64,000 nucleotides of DNA from an uncultured Bacillota bacterium (GTDB lineage: Bacteria; Bacillota; Dehalobacteriia; UBA7702), in contig CAKUYE010000003.1 in the NCBI GenBank assembly GCA_934702375.1, positions 11,589 to 75,588 on the forward strand. The letters are read 5' to 3'. A program made the position numbers and the translations under genes. Within the stretch, counting starts at the first letter, position 1, and each line of letters starts with the position of its first letter. A model generated the notes under the pieces. The model saw only the letters and a list, made by a program, of their open reading frames with translations, was not told the DNA's origin and did no database searches. Shown here piece after piece: positions 5,044-63,857 of this stretch.

Positions 5044-5250
5044 ATGAAAAATCGAATTGCCGTTTTAAGAAAGGAGCGGGGCCTTACCCAGCAGGCTTTG
5101 GCTGAAAAACTCTCGGTATCCCGTCAAACTGTGATATCTTTGGAAAACGGACGTTATAATCCCTCAATCCGTTTGGCCTACGATATTGCAAAGATTTTTG
5201 ATTGTATCATAGAAGAGGTATTTCTTTTTGAAGAGGAGGATGTAAAATGA
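5044..5250 (+). CDS. small XRE/YozG-type HTH transcriptional regulator
   Basis: The 68-aa product contains RKERGLTQQALAEKLSVSRQTVISLENGRYNPSIRLAYDIAKIF. GGGAGG lies upstream. Confidence 0.9.
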   Translation: MKNRIAVLRKERGLTQQALAEKLSVSRQTVISLENGRYNPSIRLAYDIAKIFDCIIEEVFLFEEEDVK

Positions 5251-5651
5251 AAAAAATTACGGGTCGTTTTCTTTGGCTTATCGTATTGACTTTATGTGGT
5301 ATTGGTCTTATTATTGCCGCCGGTTTTGGGTTGGTGGATAGCTTTTGGTCCGGTATGGGCTGTGGATTTCTTGCAGTGGGTGGCCTTCGCCTGATTCAGC
5401 TTGTCCGGTATAAAAAGAATGCAGAATATGCAGAACGTTTGGAGGTTAGTGTCCACGATGAACGAAACCTCTACCTGGCGGAAAAAGCCAGATCCTGGAG
5501 CTTTTACTGGAGCATTCTTTTGGAATGTATTGCCGTGATTGTGTTGCGCATATGCCAGTATCCGATGCTTTCTACGACGATGGGGCTTTTAATCTGTTGT
5601 CAATTGGTGCTGTATTGGGGCTCCTGGCTGTATTTAAAGAAAAAGCACTAA
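5247..5651 (+). CDS. small membrane protein co-transcribed with the HTH regulator (DUF2178-like)
   Basis: It overlaps the upstream stop by 4 bp (ATGA). It has four predicted TM helices. Confidence 0.75.
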   Translation: MKKITGRFLWLIVLTLCGIGLIIAAGFGLVDSFWSGMGCGFLAVGGLRLIQLVRYKKNAEYAERLEVSVHDERNLYLAEKARSWSFYWSILLECIAVIVLRICQYPMLSTTMGLLICCQLVLYWGSWLYLKKKH

Positions 5652-6430: not shown

Positions 6431-7462
6431 TTATAGTTTGATTTCGCCGCTGAGAATTTTCTGGTAATCTTCGTAGTTTTTCCGCAGCAAGTTGGGGATA
6501 TCAAGACCATAGGGACATTTCTTTTTGCATTTGCCGCAATCTTTGCAGGTTTCGATCTTCTTCATTTCTGTTTGCCATTTTTCAGTCAGGTATGGCTGAT
6601 AGGGAGAACGGCGCATCAATAAAGACATACGGGCGCATTGATTAATGCGGATCTCCTGGGGGCAGGGCATACAGTAGCCGCAGCTGCGGCAAAATTCACC
6701 TGCCAGCTCCCGGCGATCTTTTTCAATGATGGTCTGTATTTCCGGGGTAAGGGTTGGAGGATGCTCCATGTAGCTTAAAAACTCGTCCAGCTCCCATTCG
6801 TGTTGGATTCCCCAAATCGGTAAGACGTTATCAAATTTTGCCAAAAATGCATAGGCTGCGGCAGAATGATTGATCAGACCGCCGGCAAGGGATTTCATCG
6901 CGATAAAGCCCATATTCCGTTCCTTACATTTTTTTACCAAATTCAATTCCGGTTCCCCGGCAAGATAACTAAAGGGGAATTGCAATGTTTCGTAAAGGTC
7001 GGAGTCGATACATTCCTCTGCCACGGTCAGTGAGTGAGCTGTAACGCCGATGTGCCGGATCTTTCCCTTTTTCTTTGCTTTTTCCAATGTTTCGTATACG
7101 CCGGTGCCGTCGCCGGGACGATAGCATACCGGTGCTAAATGGATCTGATAAATATCAATGTAATCGGTTTGCATCAATGTCAGCGATGTTTCTAGATCTT
7201 TTTCAATTCCCTCCGGAGTGCGGCTCATTGTTTTTGTAGCAAGATAGATTTTTTCTCTGGGAATGTAATCGCCAAAGGCACAGCCGATCTTTTCTTCACT
7301 GTCTGTATATGCCCGAGAAGTATCAAAAAAGCTCATCCCGCCATCGGCAGCTTTACGTAAAATTTTTATTGCGGTTTCTTTGTCGTCTCTCTGGATCGGC
7401 AAAGCTCCAAATGCATTTTGTTCTACGGTGATATTTGTACTTCCTAATGTGATTTTTGCCAT
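6431..7462 (-). CDS. aldo/keto reductase with C-terminal 4Fe-4S cluster domain
   Basis: It has AKR motifs (FDTSRAYTDSEE, IRHIGVTAHS). The C-terminus carries CRSCGYCMPCP and CKDCGKCKKKCP cysteine clusters. The start at 7462 has a GGAAG RBS. Confidence 0.9.
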   Translation of the reverse strand: MAKITLGSTNITVEQNAFGALPIQRDDKETAIKILRKAADGGMSFFDTSRAYTDSEEKIGCAFGDYIPREKIYLATKTMSRTPEGIEKDLETSLTLMQTDYIDIYQIHLAPVCYRPGDGTGVYETLEKAKKKGKIRHIGVTAHSLTVAEECIDSDLYETLQFPFSYLAGEPELNLVKKCKERNMGFIAMKSLAGGLINHSAAAYAFLAKFDNVLPIWGIQHEWELDEFLSYMEHPPTLTPEIQTIIEKDRRELAGEFCRSCGYCMPCPQEIRINQCARMSLLMRRSPYQPYLTEKWQTEMKKIETCKDCGKCKKKCPYGLDIPNLLRKNYEDYQKILSGEIKL

Positions 7463-7688: not shown

Positions 7689-8549
7689 ATGATACAAATT
7701 TTTACGGATACTTCGGCGGCATTGCCTCAAGAACTGACGGATCGTTATGGTTTGAAGGTGATCCCCTTTCCCTATATGGTAGACGGAGAAGAATTCTTTG
7801 CGGCGACGGATGGTTCCTTTGACGGTAAAACCTTTTATCGGGCCATGCGCAACGGCGCGGAAGTAAAGACCTCCATGATCAACGCTTTTACGTATTACGA
7901 CGCTTTTGAGGCTGCAGCCAAAGCCGGTGACGAAGTGATCTATATTGGTATGTCCAGCGGGATCAGTGGAGCCTATAATGAATCCACCGTTGCGATGAAT
8001 TCTCTGCGAGAGCAATACCCCCACCAACGTTTTGCCGCTGTGGATACAAAAGCTGCGGCATTAGGAGAGGGTATGCCGGTTTTGATCGCTGCAAAAATGT
8101 TGGCGGATGGAGCTTCCTTTGAGGATATTGTGGAGGAACTGTATCGGCGTATTCCTCATATGTGCCAATTCTTTACCGTGGATGATTTGGAGTACTTGAA
8201 ACGCGGCGGCCGCATTTCAAAAATATCGGCGGTGTTGGGTACGGTATTGAATGTGAAGCCCATATTAAAAGGGGATGACGATGGGAAGATTGTCCTCTTT
8301 CATAAAACCCGCAGCCGGAAAAAGGCTTTGGATTATCTTGCCCAGATGTATCGGGAAAAACAGATGGATCCCGGGGAACCCGTTGGCATAGCCCATGGTG
8401 ATTGCGCCGGAGATGCGGCTTACTTGGAATCAAAGCTTCGGGAAAGCGGCTGCACCGGTGAGATCCTTACAGTTTGGTATGAGCCGGTGACAGGCTCTCA
8501 TGTTGGCCCCGGGACCGTTGCCATGTTCTTTTGGGGACACGAGCGCTGA
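7689..8549 (+). CDS. DegV family fatty-acid-binding protein (second paralog)
   Basis: Motifs are IFTDTSAALP, MSSGISGAY and VTGSHVGPGTVAMFFWG. An AAGGAG RBS lies 10 nt before the ATG at 7689. Confidence 0.9.
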   Translation: MIQIFTDTSAALPQELTDRYGLKVIPFPYMVDGEEFFAATDGSFDGKTFYRAMRNGAEVKTSMINAFTYYDAFEAAAKAGDEVIYIGMSSGISGAYNESTVAMNSLREQYPHQRFAAVDTKAAALGEGMPVLIAAKMLADGASFEDIVEELYRRIPHMCQFFTVDDLEYLKRGGRISKISAVLGTVLNVKPILKGDDDGKIVLFHKTRSRKKALDYLAQMYREKQMDPGEPVGIAHGDCAGDAAYLESKLRESGCTGEILTVWYEPVTGSHVGPGTVAMFFWGHER

Positions 8550-14393: not shown

Positions 14394-14482
14394 TAAAAAA
14401 AGCCGATACTTCTGTTAAAGAAACAGAAGCCATCAGCATAAAAGCGGTTTGGGCAAAGCCCGGGGAGTGCTTCATTCCCATA
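14394..14482 (-). promoter_or_regulatory. fluoride riboswitch (crcB motif) with terminator expression platform
   Basis: The minus-strand RNA reads GGGAAUGAAGCACUCCC..AAACCGC..GCUGAUGGCUUCUG. GAAGC and GCUUC can form the pseudoknot. The terminator CUUCUGUU/AACAGAAG plus a U7 run overlaps the 3' end of the aptamer. Confidence 0.85.
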
Positions 14483-14516: not shown

Positions 14517-14649
14517 GAGGTGGTTTTGTGGTTGAAATGTACACATTTTTTACACAAATTTCACCCGGTTTGGTTGTTGATAAATAACGGCGCTTGGATA
14601 ATAATTTAACTATATTCTGATTGTGGAATCGAAAAGAGAAGGACATTAA

Positions 14650-15186
14650 ATGAGTAAAAAACATACAGCAGCATCCGTTTTGGAAAAGGTGTATTATTAT
14701 GCCGGCGATGTGATCGCCTCCGATCGTTTGAAGCAGGAAGCAAAATACCGTCACCATGGCAGCGTGAGCTGCTATGAACACTCCGTAGCCGTTACGTTGT
14801 TGAGTGTTCGCATGGCAGACCGCCTTGGTTTGAATGTGGATATGGAAAGTATGGTAAAGGGTGCTTTGCTTCACGACTATTTTCTTTACGATTGGCGGGA
14901 GACCGGTTGCGGTCGCCGGGGTCATGGTTTTCATCATGCTCGTTGTGCTTTGGCAAATGCTCAGCGTGATTTTGAGCTTACTCCCATTAGCTGCGATGTG
15001 ATCGAAAAGCATATGTTTCCCTTGAATATTCGTTTGCCGAAATATAAGGAAAGCGTAGTGGTGAGTATTGCGGATAAGCTTTGCGCCACAAAGGAAGTTT
15101 ACCACTTTGTGATCGGCAAGCTGAGAAGTGATAAGGACGGATCCGTTGGTTATGGTCGAAAACGGCTGGAGCCAAATATGGATTGA
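14650..15186 (+). CDS. HD-domain phosphohydrolase
   Basis: Motifs are HSVAV..., GALLHDYFLYDW and HH. Length is 178 aa. Confidence 0.85.
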   Translation: MSKKHTAASVLEKVYYYAGDVIASDRLKQEAKYRHHGSVSCYEHSVAVTLLSVRMADRLGLNVDMESMVKGALLHDYFLYDWRETGCGRRGHGFHHARCALANAQRDFELTPISCDVIEKHMFPLNIRLPKYKESVVVSIADKLCATKEVYHFVIGKLRSDKDGSVGYGRKRLEPNMD

Positions 15187-21053: not shown

Positions 21054-22799
21054 ATGAAGAATCTTAAAAATTACCTGAAACCATATAAAAAGGAATGTAT
21101 TTTGGCCCCGGGTTTTAAGCTTTTAGAGGCGGTTTTTGATTTGCTGGTGCCTTTGGTGGTGGCCCGGATGATTGATACGAATATCTTAGGCGGCAGCCGC
21201 GGAACAGTGTTTCTCTATTTTGGGGTGCTGTTGCTGATGGCGGCGGTGGGCCTTGGCTGCACGGTGCTGGCTCAGTATTTTTCCGCCAATGCCAGCACCG
21301 GGTTTGCCGGGGCTTTGCGCCAGGGGCTTTTTGAGCATATCCAGAAATTTTCCTACAGTGATTTGGACACGCTTGGCAGCGATACTTTGATTACCCGACT
21401 TTCCGATGATGTGAATCAGGTGCAAACCGGTTTGAATATGGGGCTGCGGCTGCTGCTGCGAAGCCCCTTTATCGTGATGGGGGCGATGGTGATGGCTTTT
21501 ACCATTGATCTCCGCTGCGCTCTCGTCTTTGCGGTAACGATTCCCATTCTCTTTGCCGTGACTTTTTTTCTTATGAAAATCAGCATTCCCCTCTTTGGCA
21601 GAGTTCAGGCGGGATTGGATCGGGTTACGACTTTGACACGGGAAAATCTTACCGGCGTTCGGGTGATTCGTGCCTTTTGCCGGGAAGAACAGTCCATCGA
21701 GGAATTTGAAGGGAGCAACCGGGAGCTGACCCGGCTCAATCTTTTTGTGGGACGCATTTCCGCGCTGCTGAATCCTTTGACCTACGCTTTTATCAATATA
21801 GCGGCGGTGATTTTGATTCATCAGGCTGCAATACAAGTAAATCTCGGTGTGATTCCCCAGGGGGAGGTTGTGGCTCTCTATAACTATATGCTCCAGATCA
21901 TTGTGGAACTGGTGAAGCTGGCTGCGCTGATTATTACCTTAAATAAGGCCCTGGCTTGTGCTAAAAGAACCTCGGCTGTGCTGGCGATTGCTCCGGAGAT
22001 GGACTATCCGGAGACCGATGCATCGGAGGATAAAGGCTCTGCCGCCGTGGCCTTTGAGGATGTTTCCTTTACTTATCCCCGGGGCGGTGCGCCTAGTTTG
22101 CGCCATATCTCCTTTACCGCCAAGGTCGGGGAAACGGTGGGGATCATCGGCGGTACCGGCAGCGGGAAAACGACGCTGGTTCATTTGATCCCCCGGTTTT
22201 ACGATGCTACCGAAGGCCGGGTTGTTGTTTTTGGCAGGGATATGAAAAGTGTTACCGCAAAAACTCTTTGTGATGCCGTTGGCATCGTGCCCCAAAAGGC
22301 GGTGCTGTTTCAAGGCAGTATTCGGGAGAATCTGCGGTGGGGCAATGAAAAGGCTACCGATGAAGAGCTTTGGCAAGCCTTGGAAATCGCCCAGGTAAAG
22401 GATGTGGTGGAAGCCAAAAGCGGCGGCCTTGATTTTCGATTGGAGCAGGGGGGAAGTAATCTTTCCGGTGGTCAAAGGCAGCGACTTACCATTGCCCGGG
22501 CTTTAGTGAAAGGAGCGCCGATTTTGATCCTTGACGATAGCTCCAGCGCATTGGACCAGGCCACCGATGGGGCTTTGCGGAAAGCCCTTGGCGCTCTTTC
22601 CGGCGTTACGACCTTTATTGTTTCTCAACGGATCGTGTCCGTTCGCGATGCCGATAAGATATTGGTGCTCCACAACGGAGAGCTTGTGGGCTGCGGTAAC
22701 CACGAGGATTTGATGGAACATTGTCGGATTTATCGGGAAATCTATGCTTCCCAATTTCCCGAGGATGCTGCATCTCGGCAGAAAGGGGGTAAGCGGTGA
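21054..22799 (+). CDS. ABC exporter, fused permease/ATPase subunit (heterodimeric multidrug-type, first subunit)
   Basis: A six-TM domain is followed by Walker A GGTGSGKTT, the signature LSGGQRQR and Walker B ILILDD. The ORF opens at 21009; I prefer the ATG at 21054 (MKNLKNYL). Confidence 0.9.
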   Translation: MKNLKNYLKPYKKECILAPGFKLLEAVFDLLVPLVVARMIDTNILGGSRGTVFLYFGVLLLMAAVGLGCTVLAQYFSANASTGFAGALRQGLFEHIQKFSYSDLDTLGSDTLITRLSDDVNQVQTGLNMGLRLLLRSPFIVMGAMVMAFTIDLRCALVFAVTIPILFAVTFFLMKISIPLFGRVQAGLDRVTTLTRENLTGVRVIRAFCREEQSIEEFEGSNRELTRLNLFVGRISALLNPLTYAFINIAAVILIHQAAIQVNLGVIPQGEVVALYNYMLQIIVELVKLAALIITLNKALACAKRTSAVLAIAPEMDYPETDASEDKGSAAVAFEDVSFTYPRGGAPSLRHISFTAKVGETVGIIGGTGSGKTTLVHLIPRFYDATEGRVVVFGRDMKSVTAKTLCDAVGIVPQKAVLFQGSIRENLRWGNEKATDEELWQALEIAQVKDVVEAKSGGLDFRLEQGGSNLSGGQRQRLTIARALVKGAPILILDDSSSALDQATDGALRKALGALSGVTTFIVSQRIVSVRDADKILVLHNGELVGCGNHEDLMEHCRIYREIYASQFPEDAASRQKGGKR

Positions 22800-24190
22800 T
22801 GTCGGTACAAAGAAAACAAAGAAAAGACGAAGAAACCAAAACGGGATTCTTCGTGCTGAAAAAGCTATTGCCCTATGCCCTTCGGCATAAAGGCGCCTTG
22901 GGTTTGAGCTTGTTGCTGGCAATTGCTGCGGTGGTGATGCAGCTGTATATTCCCATCCTCTTTGGCAAGGCCATTGACCATGTTGTTGCTGCGGGAAAAG
23001 TGGATTTTGCCGGTATGTGGGTTTATCTCCGCCGGATTCTGTTTTTTGCCGTGGCGGCGGCCCTGGCCACCTGGTGGATGAACCTGTTGAATAATCGCAT
23101 TACCTATGGTATTTTACGGGATTTGCGTTCCCAAGCTATGGCCCATATTCAAAAATTGCCTTTGGCTTATCTGGATAAGCATAGCTCCGGGGATATTGTC
23201 AGCCGTATCGTTACCGATACCGACGTTATTGCCGATGGGCTGCTTTTGGGGTTTAGCCAGCTTTTTGCCGGTGTTGCTCTTGTGGGTGTGTTGCTGATTC
23301 CCGGCGGCAGTCTTACCGTTGGCGGTCTTTCCGCATTGTTGGCCTATGCTAATCAATATATGAAGCCCTTTAACGATATCAGTGCCGTGGTAACGGAATT
23401 GCAGAATACTCTGGCTTGTGCCAATCGTGTTTTTGAGCTGCTGGAAACGCCTGCGGAAACTCCCGATGCCCCAGAGGGAATTGCCGAGGTAAAGGGGCAG
23501 GTAGATTTTTCTCATGTGTTCTTTTCCTATGACCCGGAGCGGCCTCTCATTGAGGATTTGGATCTGCAGATATCGCCGGGGATGCGTGTGGCCATCGTAG
23601 GCCCTACCGGCTGCGGAAAAACCACGTTGATCAACCTCTTGATGCGCTTTTACGATGTAAATGACGGCTCTATCGCCCTGGATGGCACGCCGATTGATCA
23701 GATATCCCGCCATGCCCTCCGCAGCAGCTTTGGCATGGTCTTGCAGGAAACCTGGCTGAAAAACGGCACGGTGCGAGAGAATATCTGCTTTGGCCGCCCC
23801 GATGCTGCCGAGGAAGATATTATTGCCGCCGCCAAAGCGGCCCATTGCTGGGAGTTTATCCAGCGGCTGCCTGCAGGCCTTGATACGGTGCTGACGGAAA
23901 ACAGCCTTAGCCAAGGTCAAAAGCAGCTGCTGTGCATTGCCCGGGTCATCCTCTGCCGTCCGCCGATGTTGATTTTGGACGAAGCCACTTCCAGTATTGA
24001 CACTCATACCGAAATGCAGATCCAAAAGGCCTTCGATGCCCTAATGGAAGGCCGCACCAGCTTTGTTGTGGCCCACCGGCTTTCCACCATCCGAGATGCT
24101 TCCCTGATTCTGGTGATGAAGGATGGGAAAGTTGTGGAGAGGGGGGTGCATAGTGATTTAGTTGGTGCAGGGGGGTGTACAGTAAATTAA
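22796..24190 (+). pseudogene. ABC exporter second subunit with ~120-aa internal TMD deletion and aberrant C-terminus (probably decayed)
   Basis: Walker A (GPTGCGKTT) sits at residue ~270, against ~390 in the partner. The sequence jumps from the start of TM3 (GFSQLFAGVALVGVLLI) to the post-TM6 block (GGSLTVGGLSALLAYANQYMKPFNDIS). It ends GAGGCTVN* after a G6 run. Confidence 0.55.
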
Positions 24191-24222
24191 CGTTGGGCGC
24201 GCGGGCGCGCTAAACGCACAGA

Positions 24223-24580
24223 ATCGGGCAAACCTGCCCAAAGCCGAGCTTGCGGGTACCACTTAGTACACCGCAAACTCATCTTCGGTCACGTTTACCC
24301 GATTCAGAACGTTTATCGCACCCTTCCCGGGCGTTGAGTGGCTGATGCCGGGCAAAATCCCCAAACCACAGCTGACCGGATACGTCTTTGTATACCGGTC
24401 AACTGCGCTTCGGGGCTTTTACCCGGCCTAAGCCGTTTATCGCACCCTCTCCAGGGTAGGTGGCTGATACTCGGCAAAATCTTTGCGCCGCGGCTGCCAG
24501 GATACGTTTATGTATACCTGCCAACCACGCCCCAAAGCTTTTGCCGAGTTCAGCGTGTTTATCGTGTCCTTTTTGTGTCG
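24223..24580. repeat. three tandem ~115-124-bp structured repeats
   Basis: The units are at 24223-24344, 24345-24466 and 24467-24580. Each has an outer stem, an inner hairpin with a conserved bulged A, and a linker containing GTTTATCG(C/T)... and GGTGGCTGAT. Confidence 0.8.
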
Positions 24581-24582
24581 TT

Positions 24583-24608
24583 AAACAGCCTTTTAATGCT
24601 GTTTTTTT
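24583..24608 (+). terminator. intrinsic terminator after the repeat array
   Basis: The stem AACAGC/GCTGTT is followed by TTTTT. Confidence 0.7.
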
Positions 24609-24664
24609 GCGAATAAGACAATTTATGAGATGTATTGCAAATATTTAAACTGTACAGGAGCGCC

Positions 24665-24677
24665 GGGGGGGGGGGGG
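24665..24677. repeat. homopolymeric G13 tract
   Basis: I counted 13 consecutive G in the sequence, 10 nt upstream of a TGtaTATAAT -10-like element (24684-24693). Confidence 0.95.
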
Positions 24678-24789
24678 TAAAATTGTATATAATAATGTGT
24701 GCACTAGTCAACGAAAAGTAGACACAAGATTTAAAAAGTAGACATTTCAAAAGGGGAAAATACCCCAACAGAATAAATCGTAAGATCGT

Positions 24790-24981
24790 CCAACCTGTGA
24801 TGGGGAGGGCAGGGGAGAGAATCTCTCCCTGTGGAAGCCGGTGAGAACCCGGAGCTTAACCGTTAGCCGTATTGCGAAAGTTTGTACAACATAGGGCGAA
24901 AGCCGCCATTGTGGGAATCCATGAGAAGGTTGTGTACAGGCGCAGAGGGAAAACCTCGAGATCGCTAAGCCGGAAGACTTG
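24790..24981 (+). promoter_or_regulatory. cobalamin-riboswitch-like leader (divergent)
   Basis: Three blocks match the cobalamin consensus and the canonical copy at 63678-63836: GGAAGCCGGUGAGAACCCGG (24833-52), GCCAUUG-hairpin-AGAAGG (24905-29) and AAGCCGGAAGACUUG (24967-81). The central CCCGCnACUGU core is poorly conserved. Confidence 0.5.
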
Positions 24982-25025
24982 ATTTTGTGAGAGAAAAAAG
25001 AATATAGATTTTGTGGGAATAAGGC

Positions 25026-25075
25026 GGCCGCAAAGTTACGTTTTTTTAATGTAGCTTTGCGGTCTTTTTATTTTA
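25026..25075 (+). terminator. intrinsic terminator between the leader and the giant ORF (putative expression platform)
   Basis: The stem CCGCAAAG/CTTTGCGG (25028-35/25055-62) is followed by TCTTTTTATTTT. The gene's RBS and ATG follow ~80 nt later. Confidence 0.7.
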
Positions 25076-25157
25076 TTGGCGCACAAAGCCCTTGCTGCGC
25101 ACCGGGGTCTCAACGTCACTCATAGAATTTTTATTTGGAAAGGATGGAAAAAGGATC

Positions 25158-28100
25158 ATGAACAAAAAACTTATCGTTCTGGTCTGCGTGCTGATCAGCG
25201 TATTTGCTTTCAGTGCCGGTATTTTCGCTGCCGACCCCACTCCCTGGGATGGCACCGTAGATACCAGCTGGTACAGCACGGACAAAACAAGTTTTGAAAT
25301 CAACGATGCAAAACAGCTGGCCGGGTTGGCGGCCATCGTAAATGGTACGGCAAAAGATATCACCAAAGATACCTTCGCCGGAAAAACCGTTTCTCTTACT
25401 GCCGACCTGGATCTTGGCGGTGTGAAGAAATCCAATGGGAAATTGGAAGGAACGGCTTACGTTCCCAGCGTTTGGGAAGGCCAAAATTGGACACCTATTG
25501 GGAGAAATACCTGGTCTGATTACTTTCAGGGAACTTTTGATGGTAAGAATCACACGATCCGCAACTTATATATCAACAGTACTTCCGGTTATATCGGGTT
25601 ATTTGTGTGTATTGGCGGTACAGTGAAGGATCTTAATCTGGAAGATGGTTTTGTGACTTCTTCCAATAGCTATAACCCCAATGGTGCTCTTGCCGGTAGA
25701 GTCAACAGCGGTTGTTTCGTATATCATTGTAGCAGCAATGTAGAAACTTTTATGAAAAGCTACGGCGGTACCGGTCTTGTTGGGAATAACTCCGGTACTA
25801 TTGCCTATTGTTCCAATAGCGGTACTATGTACAGCACCAGCTATAATGTAGGCGGTATCGTCGGGCAATCTGCCGGCGGGAAGGTTGTCAGCTCATTTAA
25901 CAGCGGTATTGTTAAAGGTACCTACAACCTTGGCGGTATTGTCGGAAAAATAGGAAGCGGTACTTTTTCGATCGTAAATTGCTATAACGTTGGTGAAATA
26001 AACGGCTTTAGCAGCAGAGGGAATTACGCCGGTGGTATTGCAGGTTATTCTGCTTCGGCTGGAAATCTTGTTGCCAATTGCTACAATGCCGGTAAATTGA
26101 CTAATTTAGATGCAGAGGGTGTACAGTCGAAGAACGCTGTTGGTGCTCTTGTCGGCGGCAAAGCCATTGGTTCCTCGAATAACCTTTATCTTGCCGTCGG
26201 AGATTTAAAAGGTCTTGGCAGTACCGATAATGGCAGCTCTGATATTTTGGGTATGAGCGGTATTGCTGCCGATGCTTTGAAAAATTCCGAAGCAGATCTG
26301 GGCAGTGCCTATACCGCAGACAGTTCTAACATTAACAATGGCTATCCGATCTTGACCTGGCAGAAGGATGGCAAATATTCTACGGAACTGAAAGAAACGG
26401 AAGGGCTGGATATTGCCGAAATCAAGGACGCTACCAACAAGGGCTTTACGGTAGTGATGAGCGATCTTTTGTATTACTCTACTTTGAGCGAGGATGACTT
26501 TACCGTAGAAGCTATGGTAAACGGTACAAAGGCGGATGTTATATCTCTTCGCGGTTCCTATGTCTTGACGGAATACAACGGAAAAGTTGTCAGCGCCTTT
26601 ACTTTTACCTTTGATAATATGAAGCCCGAAGCAGACATCGTTTATTCCGTAAAATACAAAGAAAATGCGGCTAAGACCTATTCTTTCCGTTCTCCTGCAA
26701 CGGATCAGTGGTATGATTATGTTGCTGATGGTGTCTCCGGTACCGGCACCAAGGATGATCCTTATCGGATCTCCACGGCGGAAGAACTCTCTTACTTCGC
26801 TCGTTTTGCTCCGAGCAGCAAGTATAATGGTGAATACGTTGTTTTGACCAACGATATTGATATGGGGGCAAAATACTGGACGCCATTTGAATTTAGGGGA
26901 AATCTTGACGGTCAGAACTATGCGATCAAAAACCTGAAAATTGATGATGCCAACGGTGACTACTTTAACGGTGGATCCGGTTTGTTTTCCTCGATTGCTA
27001 TGAGCAGCAGTTACATGGGAAAAGAAGTCAGTTATATTTCGAATCTACGTTTTATTGATCCGGATGTAAAAGGTACTTACAGTGTCGGTATTTTAGCCGG
27101 AACGGTTTGCAATACCTTTGTTGAAAACTGTTCTGTTACCGGTGGTAAAGTGAGCACCAATGACTTAAATTACTATGCCGGCGGTCTTGTGGGAAGCGCA
27201 GATAGTGAAACGGATATGACCACGGTCTTCCGTCGTTGTTCTGTTGATTTGGATCTTTACACTCATGGCTGCGGCGGCAGCGTTGTTGGACATGTCAATC
27301 ATGGCAATACGAGCTACGGTTCTCTGTACATTGTTGATTGCCAAAGCTCCGGTACTGTGACTTCCGACAGCGCGGCAAAGAATAGCCAAGTAGGCGGCAT
27401 TCTTGGTAATGTTTGGAGACTCAAAGGTGTTGTTATTGAAAATTGCTATAGTGATGCAACCTTATCTACTACCGGTACTTGCGCCGGCGGTATTGTTGGT
27501 AAGGTGTTTGTCAGCGGTAACAGCAACCAGTATATTGGCCCTGACGGTATCACCATTAAAAACTCTGTTGCCCTGAATCCCTCGGTAAAAACTACAGAAC
27601 CTACCGGTAAGGCCGGTCGAATCGTTGCGGATGCCGATGACATTGTTGGTGCAACCAAAGGTTATTTTGATCAAAACTATGGTTTAGATACTATGGACGT
27701 TGCCGGTGGTCTTAGTATGGATATTGGCGGTTCAGGTACCGATGTCACCAAGGCCGAAGCGGAAACCAAGGAATTTTGGGCTTCCAAAGTGGGCTTCGAT
27801 TTCTCCGAAAACGGTGCCTGGATCTGGGACGACGCTCAGAAAAAACCGGTTTTGAATCATGATAGAAAAGCTGAAATCAAGGTCGTTATTGACCGTCAGC
27901 CTGCCGATGCTACCGCCTATCGCAATCAGCCTGCGCTCTTTGGGGTTGTGCCTTCCGGCGGTACAATGAACTACAACTATCAGTGGGAATCCAGCACCGA
28001 TGGGGAAACCTGGACTGCCGTGGAAAGCGGTACAGCACAGACATTGTCCATTGCCTTTGATGGTGGTTACACCGGCGGGACTCTCTTCCGTTGCGTTGTT

Positions 28101-30509
28101 ACCGATGGTGCCGGATTTACTGCAACCAGTGATTCTGCAAAGCTCAGTATTGTTTTGGCAAAATATACGCCGAAGGATGCTGTAAAAGCATTAAAGAACT
28201 ATTATGCTGAAAAGGGCACTCTTGACACTGCCCGAGAAGCTTTTGCCGCGAAGGATCTTTTAGGCGATATTACAGATTTAAATGTCAACTTGCCTTTTAG
28301 CTCTACCTATATCGGTGTTTCTTCTCTTGATTACGAAAAATTCATTACGCCCTCTTGGCTCTTTATGGATTCCTATGCTTTAGGCAACGATCCTCATCAA
28401 TATGTCAAAGTGGATGGCGGTCTTGTAGAAATTGCAGATGCTTTCCAATGGATTTTGGGCGCACAGGATGCGGAAACCGGCGTTATTACCGGGTTGACCT
28501 ATAAGGACAAAGACTATAACTATATGCCTTCTTTCATTACCGCAATGGAAATGTACTATCAGGGACAACCCTGGGGCAATGAAAAAGAAGGAACCAAACT
28601 TGGTTGTGACGGTGCCATCGAATATACTTTTGCGCAGCTGGTGGATCACGAATGCGGCGGGAAAACCTATGGTAAGCTTTCAAAGACTTATACCGGTAAT
28701 AACTTTAATGATCTAATTGCTCAGTCGGAATTCATCATGTTGATGGCTCGTTTGTCCGATGACCCTGTTTACGGTGAACAGGCCCAAGAAGCAATGGGTG
28801 ATGTATTGAAGACGATGGAATATCTTTATGAAGAAACCACTGTCCTCAATAAATATGTGGAACCCTTTGGTTTCTATGCTTCGGCTCTCTTTGCTGCTGC
28901 CGACACTACCGACAGCTACTTTGAAAAATCGGCTTATTTGGATATGGCACAGAGAGTGATTACCGAAAAGATTATGCCTTCGGTCGCTGCCGATGGTGGT
29001 TACAGTAAAGAAGTTGGGAAACAGGATATTTCCGGCGATCCTTATGCTACCGTTGCCGCTACCATGGCTTTGGCCGATTATGTAAAAGAAAAATCCTATG
29101 TCAGCTCCTTTGATTATGTACTTTCCGATGTTGATGCAGTAGCTCGAGACCTTGCTGCGATTGATTTGGGATCGGTTATCGTTGGTGATCTTGATTTACC
29201 GACAATAGGCCAATATGGCAGCACCTTCACTTGGGAAAGCTCCGATCAGAAGATTATTGATGCAAAGACCGGTAAGGTCAATCGTTTTGCCACCGACCAG
29301 GCTGTTACATTGACGGTTACCGCTGTGAAAGGGAAGGAAACGGCCAGCCGTATTATTAATGTAACGGTCAAAGCCGATGCCGATAATGATACCGATAACG
29401 TAGATGCGGTACTTTCCGGTTTGCAGATACCCTTTATGGCGATCAGTGATATCACGGTTCCCGATTCTTCCGTTGAGGGGGTATCTCTTGTTTGGACTTC
29501 CAGCAATTCCGATGTTCTTGGCATTGACGGTAAAGTGACTCGTCCTGCCATTGGTGCAGAGGATGCGGTTGTAACGCTTACTGCCACTGCGACTCAAGGG
29601 AATGTTACCAAAACCAAAGACTTTTCGGTAACGGTTTACGCACTGAGCAACGATTCTTTAAAAGAAGGTTACTATCTTACCCAGAGTAAGTATTTGGCCG
29701 ATCGAGCCATTAAAGGGTATTGGAGTATTTTTGCAGCTTATGCGGCTCTTGGTGATTATATTACCGACCCAGACAATGGCTATAGCTTTGTATTAGCATC
29801 TCCTCAGGCAAATTGGTATGGCGTTCAGTACGGTGCCACCGTTATGGCTCTTTGCGCCATGGGAGAAAATCCATACAATTATAACGGTGAAAACTGGGTG
29901 CAAAAGCTGTATGATAATTTTGGTGATCCCTATGCCGGCGGTCTCTACTCTGCCTTTGGTATGGAAGCAGCCGGTGCCAACAGCACTTTATATACTCCTG
30001 CCGGTGATTATCAAGTTGGCCAGCTTTCGGAAAAGAGCATGATATATGGTATTGATATTTCCGGTTGGGCTTCGGTCTTAGTTGCAAAACATCATGACTT
30101 CCCCGGTTATGAAGAAAGTAATGCTGCTGCATTGAAAGCATGGCTCAACTATCTGAAAGGGTTGGGGATCGACTCCGATGGTAACTTTGTCGGTTGCAAC
30201 GATATCTCCACCGGTTGTGCCATTACCGGTTTCGCCGCTCTTTACAGCATTGGTATGACTGATGTTGATCCTGCCCTTGATACCTGGAAAAATGCGGCTA
30301 CAGGTAAAGGTATCATCGATGCCATCTATGAACAGGGGCTTGTTGAAGACAGAATCCCCGGCTACATGACTCAGATGGAAATGGCTATCTGTGATATGTA
30401 CAATGCTAAATACAATGGCAGCACCTCCACGGCAAAGATGGGAACATATTCGATCCCAAAGGCAGTACCACCAGAGCGGAAGTTGCCGCGGTGCTCCACC
30501 GTTTCCTGA
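25158..30509 (+). CDS. giant secreted protein: 2x GLUG/beta-helix-like modules, Ig-like domains, two alpha/alpha-toroid (prenyltransferase/transcobalamin-alpha-like) regions
   Basis: The ATG at 25158 has GGAAAAAGGA upstream and is followed by a signal peptide (MNKKLIVLVCVLISVFAFSAGIFA). FQGTFDGKNHTIRNL and repeated GGIVG/GGLVG units suggest GLUG-type repeats. Two small Ig-like units are present (GSTFTWESSD...VTLTVTA). DGGY and DSDGNF helical repeat regions suggest the toroids. Confidence 0.9.
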   Translation: MNKKLIVLVCVLISVFAFSAGIFAADPTPWDGTVDTSWYSTDKTSFEINDAKQLAGLAAIVNGTAKDITKDTFAGKTVSLTADLDLGGVKKSNGKLEGTAYVPSVWEGQNWTPIGRNTWSDYFQGTFDGKNHTIRNLYINSTSGYIGLFVCIGGTVKDLNLEDGFVTSSNSYNPNGALAGRVNSGCFVYHCSSNVETFMKSYGGTGLVGNNSGTIAYCSNSGTMYSTSYNVGGIVGQSAGGKVVSSFNSGIVKGTYNLGGIVGKIGSGTFSIVNCYNVGEINGFSSRGNYAGGIAGYSASAGNLVANCYNAGKLTNLDAEGVQSKNAVGALVGGKAIGSSNNLYLAVGDLKGLGSTDNGSSDILGMSGIAADALKNSEADLGSAYTADSSNINNGYPILTWQKDGKYSTELKETEGLDIAEIKDATNKGFTVVMSDLLYYSTLSEDDFTVEAMVNGTKADVISLRGSYVLTEYNGKVVSAFTFTFDNMKPEADIVYSVKYKENAAKTYSFRSPATDQWYDYVADGVSGTGTKDDPYRISTAEELSYFARFAPSSKYNGEYVVLTNDIDMGAKYWTPFEFRGNLDGQNYAIKNLKIDDANGDYFNGGSGLFSSIAMSSSYMGKEVSYISNLRFIDPDVKGTYSVGILAGTVCNTFVENCSVTGGKVSTNDLNYYAGGLVGSADSETDMTTVFRRCSVDLDLYTHGCGGSVVGHVNHGNTSYGSLYIVDCQSSGTVTSDSAAKNSQVGGILGNVWRLKGVVIENCYSDATLSTTGTCAGGIVGKVFVSGNSNQYIGPDGITIKNSVALNPSVKTTEPTGKAGRIVADADDIVGATKGYFDQNYGLDTMDVAGGLSMDIGGSGTDVTKAEAETKEFWASKVGFDFSENGAWIWDDAQKKPVLNHDRKAEIKVVIDRQPADATAYRNQPALFGVVPSGGTMNYNYQWESSTDGETWTAVESGTAQTLSIAFDGGYTGGTLFRCVVTDGAGFTATSDSAKLSIVLAKYTPKDAVKALKNYYAEKGTLDTAREAFAAKDLLGDITDLNVNLPFSSTYIGVSSLDYEKFITPSWLFMDSYALGNDPHQYVKVDGGLVEIADAFQWILGAQDAETGVITGLTYKDKDYNYMPSFITAMEMYYQGQPWGNEKEGTKLGCDGAIEYTFAQLVDHECGGKTYGKLSKTYTGNNFNDLIAQSEFIMLMARLSDDPVYGEQAQEAMGDVLKTMEYLYEETTVLNKYVEPFGFYASALFAAADTTDSYFEKSAYLDMAQRVITEKIMPSVAADGGYSKEVGKQDISGDPYATVAATMALADYVKEKSYVSSFDYVLSDVDAVARDLAAIDLGSVIVGDLDLPTIGQYGSTFTWESSDQKIIDAKTGKVNRFATDQAVTLTVTAVKGKETASRIINVTVKADADNDTDNVDAVLSGLQIPFMAISDITVPDSSVEGVSLVWTSSNSDVLGIDGKVTRPAIGAEDAVVTLTATATQGNVTKTKDFSVTVYALSNDSLKEGYYLTQSKYLADRAIKGYWSIFAAYAALGDYITDPDNGYSFVLASPQANWYGVQYGATVMALCAMGENPYNYNGENWVQKLYDNFGDPYAGGLYSAFGMEAAGANSTLYTPAGDYQVGQLSEKSMIYGIDISGWASVLVAKHHDFPGYEESNAAALKAWLNYLKGLGIDSDGNFVGCNDISTGCAITGFAALYSIGMTDVDPALDTWKNAATGKGIIDAIYEQGLVEDRIPGYMTQMEMAICDMYNAKYNGSTSTAKMGTYSIPKAVPPERKLPRCSTVS

Positions 30510-31162
30510 CCTACAAATACGAAGACTTTGTAAAAGTCGATGATACCGATAGCGTGATCGTCGATATCGAAAAATTCACCTTCGGCCAGGGCTTCATCAT
30601 GGAGCCTGTAGTTGTGAAATGGGAAGAAGGGGACACCGCCGCCGATGTAACGATCCGCGCTGCCGAACAGGCCGGAGTGGAATTGCAGTATCGTGACAGC
30701 GACTATGGTTTCTATCTCTCCGCAGTAAGAGATGATGAAACAAGGGAAGCCAATATTCCACAGTACATTCTCGATGCTATGGAAAAAGCCGGGGCAGTGT
30801 TGATTGGTCGGGAAAGCCAGACCTGGCTCAGCGAAAAAGATTACAACAGCGCCCAGGGTGGTTGGATCTATTGGGTAAATCATGAACATATGGGCGTCGG
30901 TGCCGGAAATGCAGATGTAAAAGCCGGCGATGTCATTCGTTGGCAGTTCAGCGTGTATGGCATGGGTCTTGACCTTGGTGCAAAGATCAAAAATCAGGAT
31001 CCCTACGTCACTGTAGGTGAAAAGGATGCTCTTATCCATGCCATGGCCGTAGCCAGCAACCACGAAAAAGCCGGTCAGGCTTACGAAAATGCTGTGAAAG
31101 TAATGGAGAAGATGGATGCTACCCAAGCTGAAATCAACGCTGCTACGGAAGCACTCCAATAA
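30404..31162 (+). CDS. DUF4430 (transcobalamin-like C-terminal domain) segment; probable continuation of the giant ORF in the -1 frame
   Basis: This frame is open from 30404 and overlaps the end of the previous ORF. It reads GKDGNIFDPKGSTTRAEVAAVLHRFL, then the DUF4430 signature GGWIYWVNHEHMGVGAGNADVKAGDVIRWQFS. There is no independent RBS before the ATG at 30491. Confidence 0.75.
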
Positions 31163-63656: not shown

Positions 63657-63677
63657 TTCTATAATGAAATGAAATAT

Positions 63678-63836
63678 GTTTTACGGTGCCTCGGGAGAGG
63701 AGAATAGGGAAACAGGTTAGATTCCTGTACGGACCCGCCGCTGTGAGCAGCTGTTGATACCGCATAATGCCATTGCGAAAGCGAGAAGGCGCGGCAATTC
63801 GGATAAAGCTGTAAGTCAGAAGACCTGCCATAAAAC
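63678..63836 (+). promoter_or_regulatory. cobalamin (B12) riboswitch
   Basis: It reads AAUAGGGAAACAGGUUAGAUUCCUGUACGGACCCGCCGCUGU, then GCCAUUGCGAAAGCGAGAAGG, then the B12 box AAGUCAGAAGACCUGCC. The closing stem is GUUUUA/UAAAAC. Confidence 0.85.
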
Positions 63837-63857
63837 GAATGATCTCGAAATGAAGGT

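What the first reader, a model, noticed from the sequence alone, without database searches (positions are those of the whole stretch)
24223..24580. Three tandem ~120-bp structured repeats with covarying stems in the 3' region of the ABC operon
Each unit folds into a long hairpin whose sequence differs between units while pairing is kept. The outer stems are CGGGCAAAC/GUUUACCCG (A), CCGGGCAAAAUCCCC/GGGGCUUUUACCCGG (B) and CUCGGCAAAAUCUUUG/CAAAGCUUUUGCCGAG (C). The inner hairpins are GCGGGUAC/GUAC-A-CCGC, GACCGGAUAC/GUAU-A-CCGGUC and CAGGAUAC/GUAU-A-CCUG, with the same bulged A in all three. Units are joined by a conserved linker (GTTTATCGCACCCT...GGTGGCTGAT). A C-A mismatch on the + strand in units A and B becomes a U.G pair on the - strand, so the functional strand is unclear. 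The array lies between the aberrant stop of the ABC gene (24190) and a + strand terminator (24583-24608). It is not a CRISPR array, because the intervening parts are homologous to each other. It also matches no repeat family (BOX, REP, attC) that I can recognise.
Basis: seen in the sequence. Interest (0 to 1): 0.7.

Follow-up and report, generated by a model that had tools for sequence, protein, structure and literature searches.

The report
Dispersed palindromic repeat units in tandem
The three hairpins after the ABC genes are real, but they are copies of a small palindromic repeat family that sits at several places in related gut Clostridia genomes and is gained, lost and truncated between close strains, so it looks like REP/ERIC/MITE-type repeat DNA rather than a dedicated regulatory RNA of this operon.

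Summary
Window 24203-24569 holds three head-to-tail units of 118-121 nt (A, B, C; period 124 and 122 nt). Each is one long imperfect hairpin (z = -8 to -11), and the stems differ in sequence while keeping their pairing.

The units are not specific to the ABC operon. Related units occur at four or more loci in related human-gut metagenome contigs, in arrays of one to three full units. These arrays include truncated remnants, one internally deleted unit, and differences between contigs that encode an identical neighbouring protein. Each window unit is closer to a unit at another locus than to its neighbours in the array.

Twelve distinct units share three features:
- terminal inverted repeats GGGCRCGCTAAACG / CGTTTATCGCACCC;
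- a tip GGATAC-N6-GTAT(A)CC with a bulged A;
- variable stems, with two-sided compensatory changes at 17 of 32 pairs.

Wobble pairs favour the minus strand in 10 of 12 units. A sister-lineage copy at the same site shows the opposite polarity.

There was no Rfam match, no similarity in plasmids, phages or E. coli, and no transposase or integrase in the 64 kb window. Target-site duplications were not seen, and the sampled copy density is low.

Best reading: a new, lineage-restricted family of palindromic interspersed repeats (ERIC/REPIN/MITE-like). This is a modest, ordinary kind of finding.

The parts
24203..24323 (-). Unit A. A 121-nt imperfect palindrome with left terminal repeat GGGCGCGCTAAACG (24203-24216), tip GGGTAC-N6-GTAC(A)CC (24254-24272) and right terminal repeat CGTTTATCGCACCC (24310-24323). 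The strand given is the better-folding one.
   Evidence: Arms are 24203-24255 and 24271-24323. RNA folding gives -82.5 (minus) against -57.4 (plus) kcal/mol. It has 7 A.C mismatches on plus and 0 G.T. Its nearest relatives are L143u1 and L143u2, at another locus, at 72-73% identity.
24329..24447 (-). Unit B. A 119-nt imperfect palindrome with tip GGATACGTCTTTGTATACC (24378-24396) and right terminal repeat at 24434-24447.
   Evidence: Supported. The inner stem is 90% identical to unit L067u2, which lies after an unrelated SLH-protein gene.
24452..24569 (-). Unit C. A 118-nt imperfect palindrome with tip at 24500-24518 and a degenerate right terminal repeat TGTTTATCGTGTCC (24556-24569).
   Evidence: Supported. 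Its outer parts match the single unit of the sister lineage (L007 13098-13232), which shares the GTGT changes in the right end.
24195..24210 (.). GGGCGCGC x2 duplication at the left junction of the array. Homology with the sister lineage ends at 24200.
   Evidence: Reported by Tandem Repeats Finder. The BLAST breakpoint is at window 24200 = L007 13111.
22796..24190 (+). Decaying second ABC transporter gene whose 3' end abuts the array.
   Evidence: ABC_membrane matches only profile positions 2-134 of 274. The G-run is 1 nt shorter than in L007, which shifts the frame and creates the stop at 24188-24190. In L007 the operon is split into three ORFs.
24583..24608 (+). Weak terminator-like hairpin (AAACAGC/GCTGTTT plus a T-run) just after the array. 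It is not part of the repeat family.
   Evidence: Seen in the sequence and folded. It was not called by the terminator scan and is absent after the arrays at other loci.

Best explanation
The three units are members of a lineage-restricted family of about 120-bp palindromic interspersed repeats, the same kind of object as ERIC, REPIN and MITE elements.

**Anatomy of a unit (shown):**
- 14-nt terminal inverted repeats;
- a conserved hairpin tip with one bulged base;
- variable stems in between.

**Behaviour (shown).** Units sit in non-coding DNA at or overlapping gene 3' ends. They form head-to-tail arrays whose content turns over quickly. Neighbours in an array are not each other's closest relatives.

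**Mechanism (inferred).**
- Arrays grow by arrival of copies from other loci next to a resident copy, through transposition or ectopic recombination at the shared terminal repeats.
- Arrays shrink by deletion between those repeats or across the palindrome.
- The hairpin, mainly that of the bottom (minus) strand, is the form that a trans-acting enzyme or the spreading process needs. This would explain why stems co-vary and why wobble pairs sit on one strand.
- Any effect on neighbouring transcripts is a by-product.
For: **Dispersal.** Units or remnants are found at four places:
- the ABC 3' end (window, L001-3, L007-9);
- directly after the stop of a 1468-1479-aa SLH protein (L067, L135-L143);
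- upstream of the 570-aa gene (L138 8026-8066, L140 44-90);
- a diverged single unit at L143 6458-6592.

**Turnover.**
- The SLH locus carries zero, one, two or three full units plus a constant left-end remnant.
- L135 and L136 encode the identical protein P0063, yet differ by a full unit.
- L142 carries an internally deleted unit.
- L135, L136 and L138 keep only about 15 nt of the right end where L143 has a full unit.

**Relationships.** winA is closest to L143u1/u2, and winB to L067u2 (90% in the inner stem). Adjacent window units are only 43-61% identical.

**Hairpin maintained.** 17 of 32 pairs show two-sided compensatory changes, for example GGGC/GCCC against GCGC/GCGC. The covariation score is 0.47 against 0.20 in shuffles, and it collapses when partners are slid by one to three columns.

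**Strand polarity.**
- The minus strand is more stable in 10 of 12 units.
- In non-redundant variable stems there are 21 minus-strand wobbles against 3 plus-strand wobbles, and all 3 are in L007u.
- The polarity holds with DNA parameters too.

**Other support.**
- Assemblies break at these repeats.
- The neighbouring ABC operon is a decaying pseudogene-like locus.
- MITE and REP features are as reviewed in PMC3184786.
Against: - **No target-site duplication.** None is visible at any junction.
- **No enzyme.** No transposase, RAYT or integrase lies in the 64-kb window or next to any array (gene tables).
- **Low copy density.** About four loci were found in roughly 170 kb of non-redundant related sequence, three of them within about 8 kb. 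No further copy is in the window or 10 kb beyond either end.
- **No clean empty site.** No truly empty site was recovered, so insertion cannot be told apart from deletion or ectopic recombination.
- **Uniform orientation.** All copies seen have the same orientation on the G-rich strand. A randomly inserting element would not show this.
- **Stability here.** The three-unit array is identical in the window and three further same-species assemblies.
Confidence: 0.6

Rival explanations
1. The hairpins are host-selected cis-acting RNA structures. Transcribed as part of neighbouring mRNAs, they would block 3'-exonucleases, act as insulators between convergent units or attract RNase III, as shown for some REP, ERIC and Correia copies. 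That RNA role would be what keeps the stems paired.
For: - The hairpins are very stable on both strands.
- Stems co-vary.
- Wobble pairs concentrate on one strand.
- Arrays start within 0-12 nt of a stop codon at two loci.
- At L007 and L143 6458-6592 the better-folding minus strand is the sense strand of an adjacent gene.
Against: - Units are missing, truncated or internally deleted in very close strains, with no change in the flanking gene.
- The better-folding strand is antisense to the upstream gene at the two main loci.
- The ABC operon here is decaying.
- No U-tail follows the hairpins on either strand.
- L007u has the opposite wobble polarity at the same site.
Confidence: 0.15
2. The units are single-stranded-DNA recombination sites, analogous to integron attC sites. 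They would be folded from the bottom strand, recognised by a recombinase through structure and an extrahelical base, and would mark junctions where gene modules are exchanged.
For: - The bottom strand folds better, including with DNA parameters.
- A bulged base and the terminal ...TAAAC / GTTTA... boxes are conserved while the centre varies.
- Units lie 3' of ORFs in the ORF's orientation.
- The bottom strand lies on the strand complementary to the G-rich strand at all loci.
- Synteny breaks exactly at the arrays, both window against L007 and L135 against L142.
- Adjacent modules are B12-riboswitch/DUF4430 surface-protein operons.
Against: - No tyrosine recombinase lies in the window or next to any array.
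- Units are adjacent to one another, with 4-5 nt rather than ORF cassettes between them.
- The R boxes do not fit RYYYAAC / GTTRRRY: GCTAAAC has one mismatch and GTTTATC has two.
- There is only one bulge, and it sits near the tip.
- No second array bounds the window's downstream block within 50 kb.
Confidence: 0.1
3. The array is a stand-alone non-coding RNA gene cluster. It would be transcribed from the minus strand, starting at the promoter-like site 24711..24682, and processed into about 100-nt hairpin RNAs.
For: - The minus strand folds at -240 kcal/mol over 431 nt, with z = -15.4.
- A 10-of-12 sigma-70-like match lies upstream on the minus strand.
Against: - One such promoter match is what chance gives: 1 found, 1.4 expected.
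- No comparable promoter or terminator accompanies the arrays at the other loci.
- Copy number varies from none to three full units, and copies decay.
- There is no Rfam relative.
Confidence: 0.07

Closest known systems
ERIC / IRU elements of Enterobacteriaceae (about 127-bp imperfect palindromes, classed as MITEs; PMC3184786)
   Same: Both are a full-length imperfect palindrome of about 120-127 bp with no ORF. Both lie in non-coding DNA close to genes, vary in presence between strains and are associated with regions of genome plasticity.
   Different: There is no sequence similarity: blastn against 5,426 E. coli genomes found nothing. These units form head-to-tail arrays of diverged copies, show a strand-polar wobble pattern and come from an uncultured gut Firmicute lineage. 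Sampled copy density is low.
REP / BIME clusters and REPINs with their RAYT transposases
   Same: Both are extragenic palindromes that occur singly or in clusters, often at gene 3' ends. In both, the hairpin rather than the sequence is conserved. A REPIN is a hairpin of about 70-110 nt thought to move as single-stranded DNA (my own knowledge of Bertels & Rainey 2011; REP and BIME features from PMC3184786).
   Different: REP units are 20-40 nt and number in the hundreds. BIME neighbours alternate in orientation, whereas here neighbours are head-to-tail. No GTAG-type 5' tetranucleotide and no RAYT gene were seen.
Bacterial MITEs (Correia, RUP, bcr1, Nezha)
   Same: Both are small, non-coding, carry terminal inverted repeats, fold into a long stem-loop, occur in several copies and are polymorphic between strains.
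   Different: No target-site duplication was found, and no parent IS with matching ends. The whole unit is a palindrome rather than only its ends. Units accumulate next to each other.
Integron attC sites
   Same: In both, structure is conserved and sequence is not. Both have a bottom-strand folding preference, an extrahelical base, a length of 57-141 bp, a position 3' of ORFs, and AAC...GTT in the terminal boxes.
   Different: The R-box consensus is not met. There are no cassettes between sites and no IntI nearby. Integrons are not typical of Firmicutes (my own knowledge).
Pneumococcal BOX elements
   Same: Both are Firmicute intergenic repeats that form stable stem-loops, with a variable number of tandem modules.
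   Different: BOX is boxA-(boxB)n-boxC, where only the internal 45-bp module repeats. Here the entire palindrome is the repeating unit.

Membership tests
MITE | Terminal inverted repeats | tested here: met
   GGGCRCGCTAAACG and CGTTTATCGCACCC are conserved in most of the 12 units and pair with each other.
MITE | Small (under about 400 bp) and without a transposase gene | tested here: met
   Units are 118-132 nt. No gene was called in the array. A six-frame translation found no protein relative.
MITE | Several dispersed copies, polymorphic between strains | tested here: met
   At least four loci were found, with unit gain and loss and remnants. Sampled density is low, about four loci in roughly 170 kb.
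MITE | Target-site duplication flanking each copy | tested here: not met
   No direct repeat flanks the single unit L143 6458-6592 or the arrays. The apparent 14-nt repeat at L138 against L135 is the unit's own left end.
MITE | Parent IS or transposase with matching ends | not testable with these tools
   None lies in the window or in the fetched loci. No whole genome could be scanned.
REP/BIME, REPIN-RAYT | Short (20-40 nt) GC-rich palindromes, or a REP doublet hairpin, present in hundreds of copies | tested here: not met
   The unit is one palindrome of about 120 nt. The 64-kb window plus 20 kb of flanks holds only one locus.
REP/BIME, REPIN-RAYT | Cluster members alternate in orientation | tested here: not met
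   All units in all arrays are head-to-tail on one strand.
REP/BIME, REPIN-RAYT | Associated RAYT (Y1 transposase) gene | not testable with these tools
   No Y1_Tnp hit appears in any Pfam scan or gene table. The genome-wide search could not be run.
Integron attC | R'' RYYYAAC and R' GTTRRRY boxes | tested here: not met
   The boxes are GCTAAAC (one mismatch) and GTTTATC (two mismatches). Only the AAC/GTT cores fit.
Integron attC | Bottom-strand fold with extrahelical bases | tested here: inconclusive
   The minus strand folds better in 10 of 12 units, and one conserved bulge is present. However, the bulge lies next to the tip rather than in an L box.
Integron attC | Sites separated by gene cassettes, with intI or an attC cluster context | tested here: not met
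   Only 4-5 nt separate the units. There is no Phage_integrase hit in the window.
CRISPR array | Short identical repeats separated by unrelated spacers | tested here: not met
   The whole 122-124-nt period is homologous between units, and units are only 43-61% identical.
Any Rfam family | Covariance-model match at or near the gathering score | tested here: not met
   Only sub-threshold miRNA-type hairpin hits were found, with E at least 0.28. The gathering scans found nothing in the arrays.
Intrinsic terminator | GC-rich stem followed by a U-run | tested here: not met
   No T-run follows any unit on either strand.

The most novel reading that the evidence does not exclude
The units would be structure-specific, bottom-strand-folded recombination sites, an attC-like system in a gut Firmicute. 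Their arrays would mark the junctions at which B12-riboswitch-controlled surface-protein modules (aBig_2, SLH, DUF4430) are swapped between genomes. This reading would account for four observations:
- the strand polarity;
- the conserved bulge and terminal boxes;
- the uniform orientation;
- the coincidence of arrays with synteny breakpoints.
Probability: 0.08. Interest if true: 0.75.

Novelty: new member of a known kind. Interest (0 to 1): 0.3.

Why it matters
If the main reading is right, this adds one more lineage-specific palindromic repeat family to the many already known. Its practical value would be threefold:
- It explains assembly breaks and strain-level structural variation around surface-protein loci in an uncultured human-gut Clostridia lineage.
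- It warns against annotating these hairpins as regulatory RNAs.
- It gives a compact example in which compensatory changes and strand-polar wobble pairs occur in repeat DNA, a pattern that covariation-based RNA discovery can mistake for a functional RNA.

Only the minority reading, a structure-specific recombination site, would be of wider interest.

Tried and rejected
**Searches that found nothing useful**
- Tandem Repeats Finder found only an 8-bp duplication, because the units are too diverged.
- Rfam at E <= 10 gave only miRNA-like noise.
- A 20-nt degenerate pattern scanned over genome contigs gave 23 matches. None matched the unit profile at E <= 1e-3 apart from one weak partial hit in L032 (E = 7e-4), so they look like chance. 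That used the only genome scan, so copy number in a whole genome could not be measured.
- Two scans of viral contigs each gave a single match. The first is a chance match inside coding sequence. The second was not examined further.
- blastn against plasmids, phages and E. coli genomes found nothing.
- A chimeric six-frame translation of the units, used as a protein query to find ORFs miscalled over other copies, found nothing.
- Extending the sample by about 90 kb of unique sequence around the window ends and the SLH locus gave no new loci.

**Ideas rejected**
- Assembly artefact: the array is in at least four independent assemblies, and relatives are in more than ten.
- Local tandem duplication as the origin of the array: neighbours are only 43-61% identical, and each has a closer relative elsewhere.
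- Mutation bias as the cause of the strand polarity: the plus strand is G-rich. My reasoning is that C-to-T decay on it would give G.T pairs on plus, as seen only in L007u and winC, and not the A.C mismatches seen elsewhere.
- Minus-strand promoter: a single consensus match at chance level.

Full report

Yes. Window 24203-24569 contains three head-to-tail units: A 24203-24323, B 24329-24447 and C 24452-24569. They are separated by 4-5 nt, and the period is 124 and then 122 nt.

The 'conserved linker' is not a linker. GGGCGCGCTAAACG and CGTTTATCGCACCC pair with each other, so almost the whole unit is one imperfect palindrome. The arms are 53, 49 and 33 nt with 15 nt between them.

Folding is far beyond chance on both strands. 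As RNA the minus strand gives -82.5, -76.5 and -62.5 kcal/mol (z = -11.2, -9.4, -8.0). The plus strand gives -57.4, -62.5 and -52.0 kcal/mol (z = -7.8, -7.6, -5.4). DNA parameters give the same order of strands.

Tandem Repeats Finder reports nothing, because the units are only 43-61% identical. The array is 99.5% identical in three other assemblies from different samples, so it is not an artefact. The only difference over 620 bp is the length of a poly-G tract.

**2. Context**

The window is chromosomal DNA of an uncultured human-gut Firmicute, seen in Hadza and other gut metagenomes, at about 46% GC. The genes are housekeeping ones, including RNase R, SmpB, ThiI, a 2-oxoacid:ferredoxin oxidoreductase and FtsEX. 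There is no transposase or integrase.

The array follows the second gene of an ABC exporter pair, and that gene is decaying:
- Its membrane domain matches only positions 2-134 of 274.
- Its stop at 24188-24190 results from a frameshift in a G-run, relative to the sister lineage.
- In that sister lineage the operon is split into three ORFs.

Downstream lie a weak terminator-like hairpin (24583-24608), a 13-G tract, a cobalamin riboswitch (24833-24978) with a terminator-like platform, and a 1805-aa aBig_2 protein followed by a DUF4430 protein.

**3. The units are a dispersed, polymorphic family**

A sister lineage with 93-97% identical flanks (L007, L008, L009) carries a single unit at the same place. 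Flank homology ends at window 24200, the start of unit A, and the genes beyond the unit are entirely different.

A degenerate pattern that matches all known units was scanned over the metagenome collection. It returned one true hit, L067. There, two units begin inside the stop codon of an unrelated 1468-aa SLH/Flg_new/DUF4430 protein.

Following that protein's cluster into other assemblies gave a series of alleles:

| Contigs | Content after the SLH gene |
|---|---|
| L135, L137 | only a ~35-nt left-end remnant |
| L138 | one full unit plus the remnant |
| L136 | one full unit, the remnant and an unrelated ~280-bp insert |
| L067, L140 | two full units (the contigs end a little beyond the second unit) |
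| L142 | one full unit, one internally deleted unit and the remnant |
| L143 | three units (the first lacks part of its right arm) plus the remnant |

L135 and L136 encode the identical protein P0063 and still differ by a full unit.

Two more sites exist:
- A left-end remnant (L138 8026-8066) or a right-end fragment (L140 44-90) lies upstream of the 570-aa gene.
- A diverged single unit lies at L143 6458-6592. There L135, L136 and L138 retain only about 15 nt of its right end, so they carry a deletion rather than an empty site.

Several contigs start inside or beside these repeats, as expected for multi-copy sequence.

Each window unit has its closest relative at another locus. winA is 72-73% identical to L143u1 and L143u2. 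winB is 79% identical to L067u2 overall, and 90% in the inner stem. Neighbours within the window are only 43-61% identical. The array therefore did not arise by local duplication.

**4. What is conserved**

Twelve distinct units were aligned (A3, A4). They share:
- the terminal repeats;
- the block GGCAAA(A/C) with its partner (T/G)TTT(A/G)CC;
- the tip GGATAC-N6-GTAT(A)CC with the bulged A.

The stems in between fall into about five sequence types.

RNAalifold finds 17 of 32 pairs with two-sided compensatory changes on the plus strand, and 16 of 24 on the minus strand. With the pair-counting tool:
- 92.6% of cells pair, against 77.2% in shuffles (0 of 500 shuffles reach this);
- the covariation score is 0.47, against 0.20 in shuffles;
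- all measures collapse when partners are slid by one to three columns.

A clear example is CAATGGGCATAC/GTATAGCCCATTG against CAATGCGCATAC/GTATAGCGCATTG.

**5. Which strand?**

Most mismatches are A.C on the plus strand, which means G.U (or G.T) on the minus strand.
- The minus strand is more stable in 10 of 12 units, by 10-28 kcal/mol.
- In non-redundant variable stems there are 21 minus-strand wobbles against 3 plus-strand wobbles, and all 3 are in L007u.

The exception is the sister-lineage copy at the ABC site, L007u and L008u. It has 14-16 G.T pairs on the plus strand, and its right end looks decayed by C-to-T changes. winC shares part of this pattern.

The plus strand is the G-rich strand at all loci, and all copies have the same orientation on it. 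I reason that deamination bias on that strand would produce plus-strand G.T pairs, not the A.C mismatches that dominate. The polarity of intact units is therefore more likely inherited or selected than mutational. RNA and ssDNA folding cannot be told apart with these data.

**6. Explanation**

The anatomy and behaviour fit a palindromic interspersed repeat family of the ERIC, REPIN or MITE kind (features as reviewed in PMC3184786):
- small palindromic units with terminal inverted repeats;
- several loci;
- rapid gain and loss;
- remnants and internal deletions;
- location in non-coding DNA and over the ends of a dying gene;
- no Rfam relative.

I infer that units reach new places, or replace each other, by transposition or ectopic recombination at the shared ends, preferentially beside a resident copy. 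I also infer that the bottom-strand hairpin is what the process needs.

The weaknesses of this reading are:
- no target-site duplications;
- no cognate enzyme in any sampled DNA;
- low sampled copy density, about four loci in roughly 170 kb, three of them around one operon;
- uniform orientation of all copies;
- no clean empty site.

For these reasons I give it 0.6.

**7. Rivals**

- **A host-selected RNA role (3' stabiliser or insulator).** This is possible for individual copies. It is hard to reconcile with loss and truncation between near-identical strains, with the antisense polarity at the two main loci, and with the decaying ABC operon. Confidence 0.15.
- **An attC-like ssDNA recombination site.** This would explain the polarity, the bulge, the ...TAAAC/GTTTA... 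boxes, the orientation, and the coincidence of arrays with synteny breaks. It fails three tests: the R-box consensus, cassettes between sites, and a nearby integrase. Confidence 0.1.
- **A stand-alone minus-strand ncRNA cluster.** This rests on one promoter match at chance level. Confidence 0.07.

**8. Comparison, novelty and score**

The closest analogues are ERIC (same size and full-length palindrome) and REPIN or BIME (clusters in which the hairpin, not the sequence, is conserved). There is no sequence similarity to anything in E. coli, plasmids or phages. The MITE definition fails on target-site duplications.

It is a new member of a known kind. The head-to-tail arrays of diverged units and the strand-polar wobble are its distinctive traits.

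Interest is 0.3. It is a sound, well-delimited repeat family and a useful caution for covariation-based RNA discovery, but it is not a surprising new system.

The most novel reading not excluded is the recombination-site idea tied to B12-riboswitch surface-protein modules. I put its probability at about 0.08 and its interest, if true, at 0.75.

Noticed in passing
window 24665-24677: The poly-G tract has 13 G here and 10 G in three same-species assemblies (L001-L003). This is the only difference over 620 bp. It lies between the hairpin array and the cobalamin riboswitch of the 1805-aa surface-protein gene, so it is a candidate slipped-strand (phase-variable) tract.
   Followed up: partly
window 24833-24978, 25026-25064 and 63667-63846: There are two cobalamin riboswitches. 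The weak, 5'-truncated match (33.4 bits) with a terminator-like platform precedes the 1805-aa aBig_2 ORF (25092-30509) and a DUF4430 ORF (30491-31162). The strong match (107 bits) precedes an ABC ATPase and a CbiQ gene, as seen in the contigs that extend the window.
   Followed up: partly
window 22796-24190; L007 10668-13167: The ABC exporter operon is decaying. The second gene lacks half of its membrane domain and is frameshifted at its 3' end. In the sister lineage the operon is broken into three ORFs.
   Followed up: yes
L136 ~14587-14870 (empty in L135 ~14441-14462); also L142 ~14666-14957, L143 ~5100-5535, L135 ~7800-7957: A second, unrelated repeat family lies next to the hairpin units. 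Its ends are ...TGCCTTTCCCTTGAGGGGAAG and CTTCTCCTCAAGGAGAAGCCATG. It forms inserts of about 280-450 bp flanked by a 9-bp direct repeat GAGGRGAAG, which looks like a classical MITE with a target-site duplication.
   Followed up: partly
window 24200-31162; L142 7226-14660; L067 1855-6490: All loci that carry hairpin units lie beside B12-riboswitch or DUF4430 surface-protein operons. L142 has a cobalamin riboswitch at 7226-7451 upstream of the 570-aa and SLH genes. Residues 868-1091 of the L067 SLH protein resemble the window's DUF4430 protein (29% identity). With so few loci this may be coincidence.
   Followed up: partly
window 24140-24160 and 24169-24189: A 21-nt direct repeat (AGGGGGGTGCATAGTGATTTA / AGGGGGGTGTACAGTAAATTA, 81% identical) lies inside the last codons of the ABC gene, just before the array.
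   Followed up: no
L156 and L159 869-2438 (compare L155 1-2435): In some strains cas9, about 16 kb from the SLH locus, is cut down to 127-128 aa, and a phage-integrase gene (Arm-DNA-bind_4 plus Phage_integrase) sits beside it. Other strains keep an intact cas9 of about 1350 aa.
   Followed up: no
L002/L184, L144/L178, L146/L179 (sample pairs): Samples that hold window-type contigs also hold L142-type contigs. The L142 arrangement of the SLH locus (one full unit, one deleted unit and a remnant) is therefore probably that of the window's own species. This is inferred from co-occurrence only.
   Followed up: partly
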